A stretch of DNA of 64,000 nt from the sequence record NC_134263.1; one strand, 5' to 3'. The position numbers were made by a program, and so were the translations under genes. Under the pieces are notes generated by a model. It ran no database searches, was not told the origin of the DNA, and was given only the letters and a program-made list of their open reading frames with translations. Positions within the stretch are counted from its first letter, which is position 1, and each line of letters opens with the position of its first letter. Source of the stretch: Escherichia phage T5_ev219. Positions 5,740 through 41,645 of this stretch are shown here, piece after piece.

Positions 5740-6258
5740 TTAATTGACAATTCCATATTCAGCTTTTTTAATTTCAAGCCATAATAATAACTCTTGTAAA
5801 TCATAACCAGACTTACTAACACGCTTGTTAGTAATAGGATTCTTAATTTGAGCAGTCAAATAGTCACGCCCGTAATTATCCCGGGGGCGAACTTTATTAA
5901 CGTAAATGTTTTTAGGGATACCATTAGCACGCTTACAGTTTTCATACTCACTAGGAGTGCGATTATAATTATTCTGCGAACTATCAACCGCGCGAAGATT
6001 CCAGATGTTATTATTACGAGTGTTACGATCAATATGGTCAATCATTAGCTCGCTATCTATACCGCCATTCATTATACAAAAGATAATTCTATGTACTTTG
6101 AATTGTCCCATGTCTAATAGTTCAACTTGCCAATAATTACCATTTAAACCACCTGCGATGGCGTGATCTTCTCGCCAACGTAAAAACGATAACGACGTTT
6201 CATCATAATAAAAGTAACTATTAAAAAGGTCATAATCTATATCTTTATATTTAGGCAT
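5740..6258 (-). CDS. HNH homing endonuclease
   Basis: 172 aa; HNH-like motif HRIIFCIMNG...DHIDRNTRNNNIWNLR. Confidence 0.65.
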   Translation of the reverse strand: MPKYKDIDYDLFNSYFYYDETSLSFLRWREDHAIAGGLNGNYWQVELLDMGQFKVHRIIFCIMNGGIDSELMIDHIDRNTRNNNIWNLRAVDSSQNNYNRTPSEYENCKRANGIPKNIYVNKVRPRDNYGRDYLTAQIKNPITNKRVSKSGYDLQELLLWLEIKKAEYGIVN

Positions 6259-6448
6259 CTAATTGTTTCCTTATGTTATTACTTTAATCTCTATTATATT
6301 ATATCAAAATGATTAGCAGACTAGCTAATGAGTTTTTCAGGTTTAATTAGCTGACTCATAATCACTATAAAAACCTATTAGCCAACTAACTATATTTTAC
6401 GATATAATAACTACATAAATTAGTTAGTGAGAATCACTATCATTTAAG

Positions 6449-6530
6449 TTATCCACAGACTTAATCACAGCACAAAATGATTTGACACGATAGGCGGCGA
6501 TATAAGCACTTATCCACAGACTTATCCACA
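6449..6530 (+). promoter_or_regulatory. cluster of three DnaA-box matches (TTATCCACA)
   Basis: Exact TTATCCACA at 6449-6457, 6510-6518, 6522-6530. Confidence 0.6.
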
Positions 6531-36628: not shown

Positions 36629-36814
36629 TCAACCTCGTTCAATATCTAGAGAAATACCACAGGTAGGATTAATGCCTGTGCCTTTGCACGTCGGACAAAC
36701 CCAGATATTACAGAATGTATCCCCTGCTTCTGCATCAGAACTTTCTCCAACTCCTAGACAGTCAGGACAGGCACATTCTTCTAGCTCTTGCTTGAGTTCT
36801 TGAAACTTAGACAT
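36629..36814 (-). CDS. small zinc-ribbon protein
   Basis: 61 aa; CACPDC...CPTCKG. Confidence 0.5.
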   Translation of the reverse strand: MSKFQELKQELEECACPDCLGVGESSDAEAGDTFCNIWVCPTCKGTGINPTCGISLDIERG

Positions 36815-37033: not shown

Positions 37034-37111
37034 TGGTGGCTCCCCGAGGATTCGAACCTACGTACCTTCCGGTTATGAGCCGGGTGCTCATACCATATGA
37101 GCTTGAGAACC
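37034..37111 (-). tRNA. tRNA with CAT anticodon, E. coli fMet-like anticodon arm
   Basis: Anticodon arm CCGG-CTCATAA-CCGG; D stem GCTC/GAGC; weak T stem. Confidence 0.5.
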
Positions 37112-37206: not shown

Positions 37207-37310
37207 GAATTTATAAGATATATTATATTAGAAATTTAGCTTCATAGCAAGAAAATTTTTCAAGTTTTCGGTAGACATCTCATCCACATCTACAGGAGAA
37301 ACAAATCCAT

Positions 37311-37745
37311 TTAATTGTCTAGCAAATTTTCACCAGCAGGATCATTATCCCCAACAGCTACCAATTTAAAAGGTAATAATTTCAGTTGCTTTAATAACGC
37401 TTTTCCTGGAGAAGAACCCAACATTGCTAGGGCTGGATAACCAGCGTTATGTAACGCAACTGCCTTAAATACAGATTCAGCGATCAATACTACTTTTTCA
37501 TCTCCATTGAGAGTTTCTAGTCCCCATACACACTGGGTAGTAGAATAAGTAAAATATTTAGCTTCAAAGGGACACTTACCATGACCTTTTGGAGCAGAAG
37601 GATTATAAGTTTGATAGCCCCTCAACATCCCAGAGAAGTCATACAACGGGACTGTTAGCCATCCTTCCGGACTTAACCAGCAATGATATTTTTCTGTATC
37701 AAATCCTCTAGATAAGAGGTGCTGTGTTAGCTCATCAACATTCAT
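37311..37745 (-). CDS. Toprim-domain protein (primase-like C-terminal fragment)
   Basis: Track ORF trimmed to Met18 because Met1 lies inside the promoter; LIAESV...ALHNAG...AMLGSS...VGDNDPAG resembles DnaG Toprim motifs. Confidence 0.45.
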   Translation of the reverse strand: MNVDELTQHLLSRGFDTEKYHCWLSPEGWLTVPLYDFSGMLRGYQTYNPSAPKGHGKCPFEAKYFTYSTTQCVWGLETLNGDEKVVLIAESVFKAVALHNAGYPALAMLGSSPGKALLKQLKLLPFKLVAVGDNDPAGENLLDN

Positions 37746-37920
37746 ATCTGGTTCCTCTCTCAAATTTATAGATATATTATACAGAGAATTTAGCATTCAA
37801 GCAATCAAATTTTTTAACTTTTTAGAGGAAAATCATAGGGCACTTAAGGGCAGCAGATAAGTGGTGAGGACCAAAATTTGTGACCCCACTAAAAATCCGG
37901 GGGCAATTTTTAAAGACCCT

Positions 37921-37949: not shown

Positions 37950-38011
37950 ATATGTTATGGATGAGTGATCAAAGAGACACACATTTTCTATATACTAGGA
38001 GGTGTCAAAAA

Positions 38012-38992
38012 ATGACAGAAGAAGTAGCTAAGAGTCCTGAGACCGTCGCTAGCGTAGCAGCAGAACTGCATCGTCACGAGGAATCAGATAAGAAAAAGTG
38101 GGAGAAGGTCAGAGCCTACGAAGAAGAACATCGTGAACACGATGATAAAGATGAAGAAGATGACGATGATGTACGTTGTCATAAATATGGAAAATATAAA
38201 ATGCAAGAACCAGTAAACGTATTTACTAACGGCTTCCCTGGCATGGGTGCATTCCCAGCTAACGCAAGTGCTTTCGGTGGAGAAGGTATGGGTCTATTCG
38301 GAGCTATCCTAATCGGTGCTCTATTAACCGGCGGATTTGGTGGTTTTGGTGGTTTTGGTCGTGGTGCTGGCGTTGCCGCTGAAGGAACCGCTGTGGACGC
38401 GATCCTTTCTAACCAGGATACTGCAAGTATTCTAGCTGCAATCAATACTACTCGTACAGAAGCTAACCAGGGCACTGGGGCTGTTCTAAGTGCAGTAAAC
38501 GGTGTGGGAGCTGCTCAAGCTGCTAGCACTCAGCAAGTTCTGACTACTATCTACGGTACAGGTGCTAATCTGTCAAACCAGATCTGTGCTGAAACTCGTA
38601 ACGTTATTCAGGGTCAGTTCGATCTTTCTCGTCAGATGGATCAATCTTTCGCTGCTAACCAGATAGCACGTGCTCAAGATAAGTTTGACTCTGCTCAGAT
38701 TGCTTTCCAGCAGTCTATTCAGACCAACAACCAGTTTGCCGCTGTTCAGGCTCAGATGTGCGCTAACCAGAACGCTATCGAACGTCAGCTTGCTGAATGT
38801 TGCTGTGAGCTTCAGACTGCGATCGCTGGTGTAACTACTGCACGTATCCAGGACGAACTGAATGAATGCCGTCTGCGCGAAGCAATCGCTGCAGGTAGCG
38901 GTGCAAATGGTCAGGTAATCAACCAAATCGCTGTAAGTCTTGGTGCTATCACTCAGACTCTGGCTGGTCTGCAGGCTAAACTGCCGGCTTAA
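38012..38992 (+). CDS. Gly/Ala/Gln/Asn-rich low-complexity protein with central hydrophobic Gly-rich segment
   Basis: Track ORF trimmed to MTEEVAK with AGGAGG RBS; acidic N-terminus, GMGLFGAILIGALLTGGFGGFGGFG segment, Q/A/N-rich C-terminus with ECCCEL. Confidence 0.6.
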   Translation: MTEEVAKSPETVASVAAELHRHEESDKKKWEKVRAYEEEHREHDDKDEEDDDDVRCHKYGKYKMQEPVNVFTNGFPGMGAFPANASAFGGEGMGLFGAILIGALLTGGFGGFGGFGRGAGVAAEGTAVDAILSNQDTASILAAINTTRTEANQGTGAVLSAVNGVGAAQAASTQQVLTTIYGTGANLSNQICAETRNVIQGQFDLSRQMDQSFAANQIARAQDKFDSAQIAFQQSIQTNNQFAAVQAQMCANQNAIERQLAECCCELQTAIAGVTTARIQDELNECRLREAIAAGSGANGQVINQIAVSLGAITQTLAGLQAKLPA

Positions 38993-39013: not shown

Positions 39014-39430
39014 ATGAGTAAATATGGTTTTGTGAACAACGGATTTAATCAACCAATGGGCTCCCAGCAGCCCGTTCCGGGTCTGGATAATCCTTACCTA
39101 CAACAGTTGCAACAGCGTTTAGCAGAAGCGCAACAGATGCAGCAACAACTCCAGCAAAACCCTGGAAGTGTGAGTCCTATGCAAATGATGCAGCAAATGA
39201 GCGGGCAGTCGCAAATGCCTCAACAAATGCATCAACAGGTGACTCAGCAGCAAGTTCAGCAGCAAACCCAACAACCGCAGGTTTCTGCGGAAGGACAGGC
39301 AGTACTAGCCCTTTTCGAAGACTTCGCAAAGACAGAGGATGGGAAGCAGCTTGTATCACTTATGGGTAAGTTTAATAGCTTCTGCCAAAGCCAAATTGCA
39401 AAAGCTCAAAATAGCGGTAATAACTCCTAA
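39014..39430 (+). CDS. glutamine-rich low-complexity protein
   Basis: 138 aa; GGGAGG RBS; poly-Q/QQ-rich middle. Confidence 0.55.
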   Translation: MSKYGFVNNGFNQPMGSQQPVPGLDNPYLQQLQQRLAEAQQMQQQLQQNPGSVSPMQMMQQMSGQSQMPQQMHQQVTQQQVQQQTQQPQVSAEGQAVLALFEDFAKTEDGKQLVSLMGKFNSFCQSQIAKAQNSGNNS

Positions 39431-40811: not shown

Positions 40812-41313
40812 TTTAAGTATTTTTAAGAACTCTCGTAAAAACTCTTAAAAATACAGACGATACCGGGAGAGTCATAAGTCTCACTCATTAAGTATTTCAA
40901 GACAAAATACAGTAACGTCTATTATTTTCCAGTTTAAGTCAGGGTGACTTAGTGGTTATGTCCTGCGGTATATTGAGGACTCGGTTAGGCTTGGGGTCAT
41001 GACTTCCCGCCTTTTGCTGCTACTCAACAGGAGTTATCGCGAATTACCTGTGCTATTGTGCACCATTAGTGACATCTCTCATGTCAGCATTTCCCACTTT
41101 GTGGATAGCTTGAAAAACTACTCCGATATGGAGAAAGAACTTCACTATCCTAGAATACCTTCTAAAGTTCTTCTTTAGCCTGGACATAGTTAAATCGTAA
41201 TAAAACTATTCAGCAGACTGGTTGGTTAGTCTGGAACCAACTACCGCGTGGTTTAGGCAGTGCGCAACTAACCTCGGAAGCTTTTACGTTAAAAGCATCA
41301 GTTATCCAGTTCT

Positions 41314-41385
41314 TACCGACCGTAGGATTCGAACCTACATCTTCCACCAGTTACGGCTTGGTAATACCAATTATACTAGGACGGC
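41314..41385 (-). tRNA. tRNA-like element (no encoded CCA; possible pseudogene)
   Basis: T arm GTAGG-TTCGAAT-CCTAC; acceptor with one mismatch; non-canonical anticodon loop. Confidence 0.3.
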
Positions 41386-41645
41386 AGTGTTACTACATAA
41401 GTGATTTCCACACCCCACTATTTATAAATTAGAGAAGAGTTTAGGGGAGAGGTTTCAGACGCCCCATTTTACACGTTCTAGCCACTAACCGGGATTGCCG
41501 CCCCCTGTGTACTAGTTTTCCAACTAACCCACCGACTCTATTCAATGCGCTCCGGTTGGGATTCTGCACTCAGCGTAATCGGCTCGCTGTTCTCTAATTT
41601 ATGAATATATTATACAGAATTTATAGGCATTTAGCAAATAAATTT

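What the first reader, a model, noticed from the sequence alone, without database searches (positions are those of the whole stretch)
37311..37745. Short Toprim-domain protein lacking zinc-binding and polymerase domains
The C-terminal half carries DnaG-type Toprim signatures (E...DxD) but the protein is only 144 aa and ends just after the DxD motif. It may be a primase fragment, a split primase partner or a small nuclease.
Basis: partly seen in the sequence, partly recalled or inferred. Interest (0 to 1): 0.35.

Follow-up and report, generated by a model that had tools for sequence, protein, structure and literature searches.

The report
Frameshifted copy of T5 anti-retron gene rad
This short "primase-like" gene is the already described anti-retron gene rad (T5.076 / SP15 ORF75) of T5-like phages, and it only looks cut off after the DxD motif because this genome has lost one A from a run of five.

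Summary
The ORF is real: minus strand, 37311-37745, 144 aa, with E90 and D133-x-D135. The window is a T5-like phage. The exact 144-aa protein is VUF55265.1 of Escherichia phage T5_ev219.

The gene is the orthologue of T5.076 and of phage SP15 ORF75. ORF75 was published as the determinant that lets T5-like phages evade retrons Eco2 and Eco7. A preprint named it Rad and reported that it lowers retron ncRNA and msDNA.

Intact orthologues are 172 aa. Here an A5 run is A4 (37327-37330), which shifts the frame after E139. The lost 32 residues, including D153 and E156, are still readable out of frame. Salmonella phage VSe12 has A6 at the same run.

A confident model of the intact protein (pLDDT 96) matches the whole RNA-polymerase domain of DnaG and T7 gp4 primases. 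So only the zinc finger is missing, not the polymerase domain.

It is not a piece of the replicative primase. T5 encodes a complete primase (T5.121) beside its DnaB-like helicase.

Verdict: a known gene, carried here as a probably inactive allele or a sequencing error. Low interest.

The parts
37311..37745 (-). rad (T5.076 / SP15 ORF75 orthologue), frameshift-truncated allele, 144 aa. Residues 1-139 are authentic and the last 5 (NLLDN) are out-of-frame.
   Evidence: ORF list. 96% identity to SP15 ORF75 and 94% to T5.076 and chee24. The exact protein is VUF55265.1 of phage T5_ev219. PHROG 849 E=4.7e-55.
37327..37330 (-). A4 run in codons 139-140. It is A5 in intact relatives and A6 in Salmonella phage VSe12. 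This is the site of the frameshift.
   Evidence: DNA alignments. IMG/VR exact-pattern counts: A5 18 contigs, A6 1, A4 0. None of 225 phage records matches the site at 100% identity.
37228..37326 (-). Out-of-frame remnant of the rad 3' end, FARQLNGFVSPVDVDEMSTENLKNFLAMKLNF*. It encodes the third Toprim acidic cluster (D153, D155/E156) and the C-terminal helix.
   Evidence: Translation. The sequence is identical to the C-terminus of T5.076 and chee24. D153 is kept in 89/98 family members and E/D156 in 85/98.
37476..37478 (-). Codon of E90, the Toprim catalytic glutamate (E-S-V-F-K here; E-G-x-F-D in the family consensus).
   Evidence: E90 is conserved in 97/98 family members and aligns with the EGxxD motif of E. 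coli and Aquifex DnaG.
37341..37349 (-). Codons of D133-N-D135, the Toprim DxD metal-binding motif.
   Evidence: D133 is kept in 86/98 and D135 in 93/98 members. It aligns with DGDxAG of DnaG. D135H lowers Rad activity (preprint 10.1101/2023.03.15.532788).
37776..37804 (-). Early promoter of rad, equivalent to T5 P15a: TTGCTT, 17 nt, TATAAT. The upstream ATG at 37796 lies in its spacer.
   Evidence: Sequence. T5 annotates promoter P15a directly upstream of T5.076.
37222..37250 (-). Promoter equivalent to T5 P15b (TTGCTA, 17 nt, TATAAT). It overlaps the 3' end of intact rad and drives the downstream tRNA-Ser(GCU) and tRNA(CAU) genes.
   Evidence: Promoter scan, 10 of 12 matches. T5 annotation of P15b. 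The overlap may also explain why these bases are invariant in five phages.

Best explanation
The ORF is the rad gene of a T5-like phage, Escherichia phage T5_ev219. It is the orthologue of T5.076 and of SP15 ORF75.

The intact product is a stand-alone 172-aa protein. It consists of a complete DnaG/T7 gp4-type RNA-polymerase domain (N-subdomain plus Toprim) with no zinc-binding domain and no helicase-binding domain. It is transcribed early from its own sigma-70 promoter at the edge of the tRNA-rich accessory region.

Published genetics show that it lets T5-like phages escape retrons Eco2 (Ec67) and Eco7 (Ec78). A preprint reports that co-expression lowers the retron msr-msd ncRNA and msDNA, but not the RT or effector transcripts. 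The most likely mechanism is inferred, not shown. The Toprim acidic residues (E90, D133, D135, D153, E156) would bind divalent metal and cut the structured retron ncRNA, so the retron complex is never armed.

In this window one A is missing from an A5 run. The frame shifts after E139, in the middle of helix 136-144 of the model, and the protein ends at 144 aa. It loses the last beta-strand, D153, E156 and the C-terminal helix. This allele is therefore probably inactive, unless the deletion is a sequencing or assembly error.
For: Identity:
- 96% identity to SP15 ORF75 and 94% to T5.076.
- Same position in the genome: divergent T5.077-like gene, then rad, then tRNA-Ser(GCU).
- All five residues mutated in the Rad preprint (R13, P33, I88, D135, E156) match the residue type in 172-aa numbering.
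- PMC10644984 states that the T5 TOPRIM 'primase' ORF is Rad.
- PMC11555353 names ORF75 as the determinant of Eco2/Eco7 evasion.

Fold:
- The AF2 model of the intact protein has pLDDT 96.4 and pTM 0.91.
- Foldseek matches DnaG RNA-polymerase domains at E about 1e-6. The T7 gp4 primase fragment 1NUI matches with TMq 0.69 and rmsd 3.4 over the whole length.
- The family profile hits DnaG structures at E=2e-6.

Not the replicative primase:
- T5.121 has zinc ribbon, DNAG_N and Toprim next to D6 and pol.
- Most of the top 150 of 430 family representatives are stand-alone proteins of about 165-190 aa.
- Fusion partners are Arr-like ART, GNAT, cytidylyltransferase, HAD, Mom and a CCA-adding-type nucleotidyltransferase. 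No zinc finger or helicase was found in the 13 genuine fusion proteins scanned.

Frameshift:
- Searches show the missing base, the readable out-of-frame tail and the absence of A4 elsewhere.
Against: - The ncRNA-degradation mechanism rests on one preprint. The peer-reviewed version says the mechanism of ORF75 could not be determined.
- No nuclease assay on purified protein was found in the papers searched.
- T5-type Rad has K94 where the family consensus and DnaG have Asp (EGxFD). Among 98 members, 35 have K and 51 have D.
- ORF75 does not help T5 against the FORC 82 type I-A retron (PMC12475279), so it is not a universal retron inhibitor.
- I cannot tell from sequence whether the 1-nt deletion is real.
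Confidence: 0.85

Rival explanations
1. The truncation is an artefact. The phage really has A5 and an intact 172-aa Rad, and the missing A is a homopolymer sequencing or assembly error in the deposited genome.
For: The change is a single base in a homopolymer. The out-of-frame tail is 100% identical to relatives. No other record shares A4. VSe12 shows the opposite error type, A6, at the same run, as expected for a run that sequencers miscount.
Against: Against chee24, the window has few isolated 1-nt indels and nearly all lie outside genes, so it is not a generally error-ridden assembly. The perfect conservation of the tail is also explained by the overlapping tRNA promoter. rad is dispensable in the laboratory and is often lost or split: the T5n, SP15m and BF23 deletions, NBEco002 and Erwinia jumbo phages.
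Confidence: 0.4
2. It is a fragment of the replicative primase, or one half of a split primase that needs a separately encoded zinc-binding partner.
For: Many database records name it 'DNA primase'. The fold is that of the primase RNA-polymerase domain. hhalign against the T5.121 primase gives probability 96%.
Against: T5-like phages have a complete primase with zinc ribbon, DNAG_N and Toprim in the replication module. The family is typically stand-alone at about 170 aa, and no zinc finger or helicase was found in the fusion proteins scanned. A 44.5-kb phage with a homologue also has its own helicase-primase. The gene is deleted in viable T5n, SP15m and BF23. Identity to T5.121 is only 16%.
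Confidence: 0.03
3. It is an RNA-processing or RNA-repair enzyme for the phage's own tRNA cluster, in the manner of the Toprim RNase M5. Under this reading the effect on retrons is secondary.
For: The gene sits in the tRNA-rich region, directly upstream of two tRNA genes. The Toprim half superposes on RNase M5 with TMt about 0.7. One homologue is fused to a CCA-adding-type nucleotidyltransferase head domain, and Vibrio phage homologues lie next to a tRNA nucleotidyltransferase.
Against: Homologues occur in phages where the gene has a different context, after a SNF2 helicase. The N-terminal half matches DnaG, not the RNase M5 C-terminal domain. Rad expressed alone from a plasmid rescues deletion phages on retron hosts.
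Confidence: 0.05
4. Rad is a catalytically active, zinc-finger-less primase-like nucleotidyl transferase, or a tight binder of ssDNA or RNA. It would disarm retrons by acting on msDNA or ncRNA without hydrolysis.
For: The whole RNA-polymerase-domain fold and all Toprim metal ligands are kept. Conserved N-subdomain residues (R13, G43, Q45, Y47, K53, R/K63, Y64) lie where DnaG motifs II and III are.
Against: The canonical G-G-R and K-Y primase motifs are replaced. The preprint reports lower ncRNA and msDNA levels, which fits degradation better.
Confidence: 0.05

Closest known systems
Rad / ORF75 of Escherichia phage SP15 (AP019559, E0157_075) and T5.076 of phage T5 (YP_006904.1)
   Same: Orthologous gene: 94-96% identity, same neighbours, same promoter arrangement. 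Residues R13, P33, I88 and D135 are present.
   Different: The window allele has A4 instead of A5 and stops at 144 aa instead of 172 aa. It loses D153, E156 and the C-terminal helix. SP15 annotates 189 aa from an upstream ATG that lies inside the promoter.
RNA-polymerase domain of DnaG-type primases (T7 gp4 primase fragment 1NUI; E. coli DnaG core 1DDE/1EQN)
   Same: Same two-part fold, N-subdomain plus Toprim, over the whole length. The E, DxD and D(x)D/E acidic clusters are shared.
   Different: There is no CHC2 zinc-binding domain and no helicase-interaction domain. Motif II/III residues differ (G-Y-Q-x-Y instead of G-F-G-G-R). The gene is not in the replication module and is dispensable. 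Its reported activity is anti-retron, not priming.
T5.121 (pri), the replicative primase of T5
   Same: Distant homologue over the RNA-polymerase domain (hhalign probability 96%, 16% identity).
   Different: T5.121 is 296 aa with zinc ribbon, DNAG_N and Toprim, and it sits between D6 (DnaB-like helicase) and the DNA polymerase. In this phage it lies outside the window.
RNase M5 (Toprim ribonuclease, 6TPQ/6Z2B)
   Same: A small Toprim enzyme that cuts a structured RNA using two Mg2+ ions. The Toprim halves superpose with TMt 0.6-0.7 and rmsd about 2.
   Different: Only the Toprim half matches. RNase M5 has a C-terminal RNA/L18-binding domain, whereas Rad has an N-terminal DnaG-type subdomain.
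MG010-type truncated DnaG paralogues (TIGR00646)
   Same: DnaG-like proteins without a zinc finger. There is a weak hit at E=7e-4 covering residues 23-148.
   Different: The score of 19 bits is far below the 260-bit cut-off, so it is not a member.

Membership tests
rad locus of T5-like phages (orthology to SP15 ORF75 / T5.076) | High sequence identity to the experimentally tested ORF75 | tested here: met
   96% to SP15 ORF75 and 94% to T5.076 over the in-frame part.
rad locus of T5-like phages (orthology to SP15 ORF75 / T5.076) | Conserved position: between the divergent T5.077-like gene and tRNA-Ser(GCU), with its own early promoter | tested here: met
rad locus of T5-like phages (orthology to SP15 ORF75 / T5.076) | Residues R13, P33, I88 and D135, whose mutation lowers anti-retron activity | tested here: met
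   All four are present at those positions in 172-aa numbering.
Intact, functional rad allele | Full 172-aa reading frame including D153, E156 and the C-terminal helix | tested here: not met
   A 1-nt deletion shifts the frame after E139, and E156 is encoded out of frame.
Intact, functional rad allele | Rescue of phage on retron Eco2/Eco7 hosts; reduction of ncRNA and msDNA | not testable with these tools
   This needs plaque assays and RNA/msDNA gels. It has been published only for intact alleles.
DnaG-type replicative primase | CHC2 zinc-binding domain | tested here: not met
   There is no Zn_ribbon_DnaG hit, and the protein starts directly with the RNA-polymerase-domain fold. T5.121 has the domain.
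DnaG-type replicative primase | RNA-polymerase-domain fold (N-subdomain plus Toprim) | tested here: met
   Met for the intact orthologue. The window allele lacks the last strand and helices.
DnaG-type replicative primase | Canonical motif II/III residues (G-G-R, K-Y) | tested here: inconclusive
   They align to G43-Y-Q-x-Y47 and K53 ... R/K63-Y64. These are conserved but different residues.
DnaG-type replicative primase | Encoded with, or coupled to, the replicative helicase | tested here: not met
   The gene lies in the tRNA-rich accessory region. The replication module, with D6 helicase, pri and pol, is about 30 kb away in T5 and chee24.
DnaG-type replicative primase | Primer synthesis activity | not testable with these tools
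   This needs a biochemical assay.
RNase M5-type Toprim RNase | Toprim domain plus a C-terminal 5S rRNA/L18-binding domain | tested here: not met
   Only the Toprim half aligns (95-106 columns). The other half is DnaG-like and N-terminal.
OLD / AriB / GajA-type Toprim nucleases | Toprim nuclease fused to, or partnered with, an ABC-type ATPase | tested here: not met
   It is a stand-alone protein with only Toprim hits in Pfam. No OLD-family structure appears among the fold matches.

The most novel reading that the evidence does not exclude
Rad-family proteins are complete DnaG/T7 gp4-type RNA-polymerase domains. They keep every Toprim metal ligand and a conserved N-subdomain residue set of their own.

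The evidence does not exclude two readings:
- They disarm retrons by nucleotidyl transfer on, or tight binding to, msDNA or ncRNA, rather than by hydrolysis.
- The A-run at codons 139-141 (A4 here, A6 in VSe12) is a genuine slippage site that switches this anti-retron gene off and on in natural T5-like populations.
Probability: 0.1. Interest if true: 0.5.

Novelty: already known. Interest (0 to 1): 0.15.

Why it matters
For annotation, hundreds of T5-like genomes still call this gene 'DNA primase' or 'hypothetical protein'. It should be labelled rad, the retron anti-defence gene. In this genome it should be flagged as frameshifted.

For biology, the result is modest. If the deletion is real, T5_ev219 is a natural rad-null phage. 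It would be a ready-made control for retron sensitivity.

The biochemical mechanism of Rad remains open, but that question does not arise from this window.

Tried and rejected
- A single-sequence phmmer search of PDB gave only chance xylanase hits with E above 0.2. The family profile was needed.
- The word-indexed homologue search returned only 9 proteins. The exhaustive search gave 430.
- One 4090-aa hit with 28 matched stretches (P0067) is a NACHT-LRR protein, so it is a spurious repeat match.
- I asked whether a homologue next to a helicase in a 44.5-kb phage is that phage's true primase. The helicase is SNF2-type, and the phage has a separate helicase-primase.
- I searched for the frameshifted allele elsewhere and found none. 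IMG/VR exact patterns gave 0, and 225 phage records all carry the extra base or differ at the site.
- I checked whether the window is generally full of homopolymer errors, and it is not. Nearly all other isolated 1-nt differences from chee24 lie outside genes. The exception, at 36745, matches VSe12's 186-nt ORF, so there chee24 is the odd one.
- Searches for later mechanistic work on Rad found only citations.

Full report
**1. What is in the sequence**

On the minus strand an ORF runs from ATG 37745 to TAA 37311, giving 144 aa.

A longer version from ATG 37796 (161 aa) is not credible. That ATG lies in the 17-nt spacer of a TTGCTT/TATAAT promoter at 37804-37776. In T5 this promoter is annotated as P15a, directly upstream of the orthologous gene.

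The window carries 23 tRNA genes called by ARAGORN. It is 97% identical to T5-like phages such as chee24. The exact 144-aa protein is on record as VUF55265.1, 'Phage protein [Escherichia phage T5_ev219]', so that is the source genome.

**2. Why it ends after DxD**

Alignment with chee24, T5, SP15 and VSe12 shows a run of A at codons 139-141. It is A5 in chee24 and SP15, and AAAAG in T5. It is A4 in the window (37327-37330) and A6 in Salmonella phage VSe12.

The deletion shifts the frame after E139. The authentic C-terminus, FARQLNGFVSPVDVDEMSTENLKNFLAMKLNF*, is still encoded out of frame at 37228-37326. Intact orthologues are 172 aa.

A4 was found nowhere else:
- IMG/VR exact patterns gave 0 contigs for A4, 18 for A5 and 1 for A6, the last being VSe12.
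- No 100% match was found among 225 phage records.

VSe12's A6 gives a 142-aa product ending ...GEKIC. The same run has therefore been hit twice, in opposite directions.

Against chee24 the window has few other isolated 1-nt indels, and nearly all are outside genes. The exception, at 36745, matches VSe12's 186-nt ORF, so there chee24 is the odd one. I cannot decide between a real mutation and a homopolymer error.

The perfect conservation of the out-of-frame tail is not informative. It overlaps the promoter of the downstream tRNA genes, P15b in T5.

**3. What the gene is**

It is the orthologue of T5.076, annotated 'DNA primase' because of a Toprim match. It is also the orthologue of SP15 ORF75, at 96% identity with the same neighbours.

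The literature on this gene says the following:
- PMC11555353 shows that ORF75 is the determinant in the tRNA-rich region that lets SP15 and T5 evade retrons Eco2 and Eco7. It leaves the mechanism open.
- The preprint 10.1101/2023.03.15.532788 names it Rad. It reports reduced msr-msd ncRNA and msDNA on co-expression, activity of a Proteus phage homologue, and loss of activity with R13E, P33T, I88T, D135H and E156H.
- PMC10644984 states that the T5 TOPRIM 'primase' ORF is Rad.
- PMC12475279 reports that ORF75 does not help against the FORC 82 retron.

All five mutated residues match the residue type in the 172-aa numbering of this protein. E156 lies beyond the frameshift.

**4. Fold and family**

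An exhaustive HMMER search found 430 cluster representatives. Most of the 150 listed are stand-alone proteins of about 165-190 aa.

In an alignment of 98 members, the residues conserved in about 80-100% of members are R13, G43, Q45, Y47, K53, R/K63, Y64, G75, E90, D133, D135, D153 and E/D156.

The AlphaFold model of the intact protein is very confident, with pLDDT 96.4. Its best structural matches are:
- the RNA-polymerase domains of bacterial DnaG;
- the T7 gp4 primase fragment 1NUI, with TMq 0.69 and rmsd 3.4 over the whole length;
- RNase M5, which matches only the Toprim half.

The family profile hits DnaG structures at E=2e-6. The alignment reaches into motif II/III of the N-subdomain.

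The protein therefore lacks the zinc finger but not the polymerase domain. The window allele stops in the middle of helix 136-144. It loses the last strand, the D153/E156 cluster (equivalent to the DnaG DPD motif) and the C-terminal helix. I infer that it is inactive.

**5. Not the replicative primase**

T5 encodes pri (T5.121, 296 aa) with CHC2 zinc ribbon, DNAG_N and Toprim. It sits between the DnaB-like D6 helicase and the DNA polymerase. chee24 has the same module.

Rad is only a distant homologue of T5.121, at 16% identity.

Fused family members carry Arr-like ADP-ribosyltransferase, GNAT, cytidylyltransferase, HAD, Mom or a CCA-adding-type nucleotidyltransferase. No zinc finger or helicase was found in those scanned.

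A 44.5-kb phage with a homologue next to a SNF2 helicase also has its own helicase-primase.

The gene is deleted in viable T5n, SP15m and BF23. It is split in NBEco002 and in Erwinia jumbo phages.

**6. Mechanism**

Shown in the literature: genetic rescue from Eco2 and Eco7, and lower ncRNA and msDNA levels (the latter in the preprint only).

Inferred here: metal-dependent cleavage of retron ncRNA by the Toprim site, with the DnaG-like N-subdomain helping to bind nucleic acid.

Not excluded: binding or nucleotidyl transfer rather than hydrolysis.

**7. Verdict**

This is a known gene with a known role, carried here as a frameshifted and probably null allele, or as a sequencing error. Novelty: already known. 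Interest: low.

Noticed in passing
window 37037-37111 (-): A tRNA gene scoring 40 bits in Rfam was not called by ARAGORN. It corresponds to tRNA-Ile2(CAU) of T5, which is annotated tRNA-Met in chee24, SP15 and VSe12. The window therefore has at least 24 tRNA genes.
   Followed up: partly
L011 (Salmonella phage VSe12, NC_048794) 1319-1747; window 37327-37330: VSe12 has A6 in the same A-run, giving a 142-aa truncated Rad (...GEKIC*). The run has been hit independently in both directions in deposited genomes.
   Followed up: yes
L006 (Erwinia phage vB_EamM_Y3) 3001-3499: The Rad-like gene is split into two overlapping ORFs of 83 and 93 aa by a frameshift between the N-subdomain and the Toprim half. 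tblastn finds two joined pieces in every Erwinia jumbo phage row listed (57 Erwinia phage records match in all). This could be an old pseudogene or a conserved frameshift.
   Followed up: partly
L009 (Phage NBEco002) 540-1058: rad is split into two ORFs of 82 and 86 aa. The divergent T5.077/T5.078-like gene pair is absent, and the lipoprotein gene sits directly upstream.
   Followed up: no
Proteins P0025, P0085, P0090, P0091, P0103, P0119 (one search hits): Rad-like modules occur fused to Arr-type ADP-ribosyltransferase, cytidylyltransferase, HAD phosphatase, GNAT, a CCA-adding-type (PolyA_pol head) nucleotidyltransferase and Mom. These are typical counter-defence or RNA-repair partners, not replication domains.
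   Followed up: partly
window 37796 (-); L007 (SP15) 5931-6500: SP15 ORF75 is annotated, and quoted in the preprint, as 189 aa from an upstream ATG that lies inside the promoter spacer. The mutant numbering in the preprint fits the 172-aa form.
   Followed up: yes
window 41313-41386 (-): ARAGORN calls a 'tRNA-Ser' with the unusual anticodon ACT. The region corresponds to T5 'RNAX', a stable RNA of unknown function.
   Followed up: no
window 37952-38992 (+) and 39014-39430 (+): The divergent gene pair next to rad (T5.077/T5.078 orthologues) encodes a Gly-rich protein and a Gln-rich protein. Both are hypothetical proteins in T5, chee24 and SP15. Other records over this 3.5-kb stretch also carry the names 'antitermination protein Q' (in VSe12 that is the small 630-815 ORF, not this pair) and 'cAMP-dependent protein kinase catalytic subunit', which look like unreliable annotation.
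   Followed up: no
window 37755-37756: A 2-nt (CT/GA) insertion relative to chee24 lies in the GA-repeat between the promoter and the rad start codon, in the ribosome-binding region.
   Followed up: no
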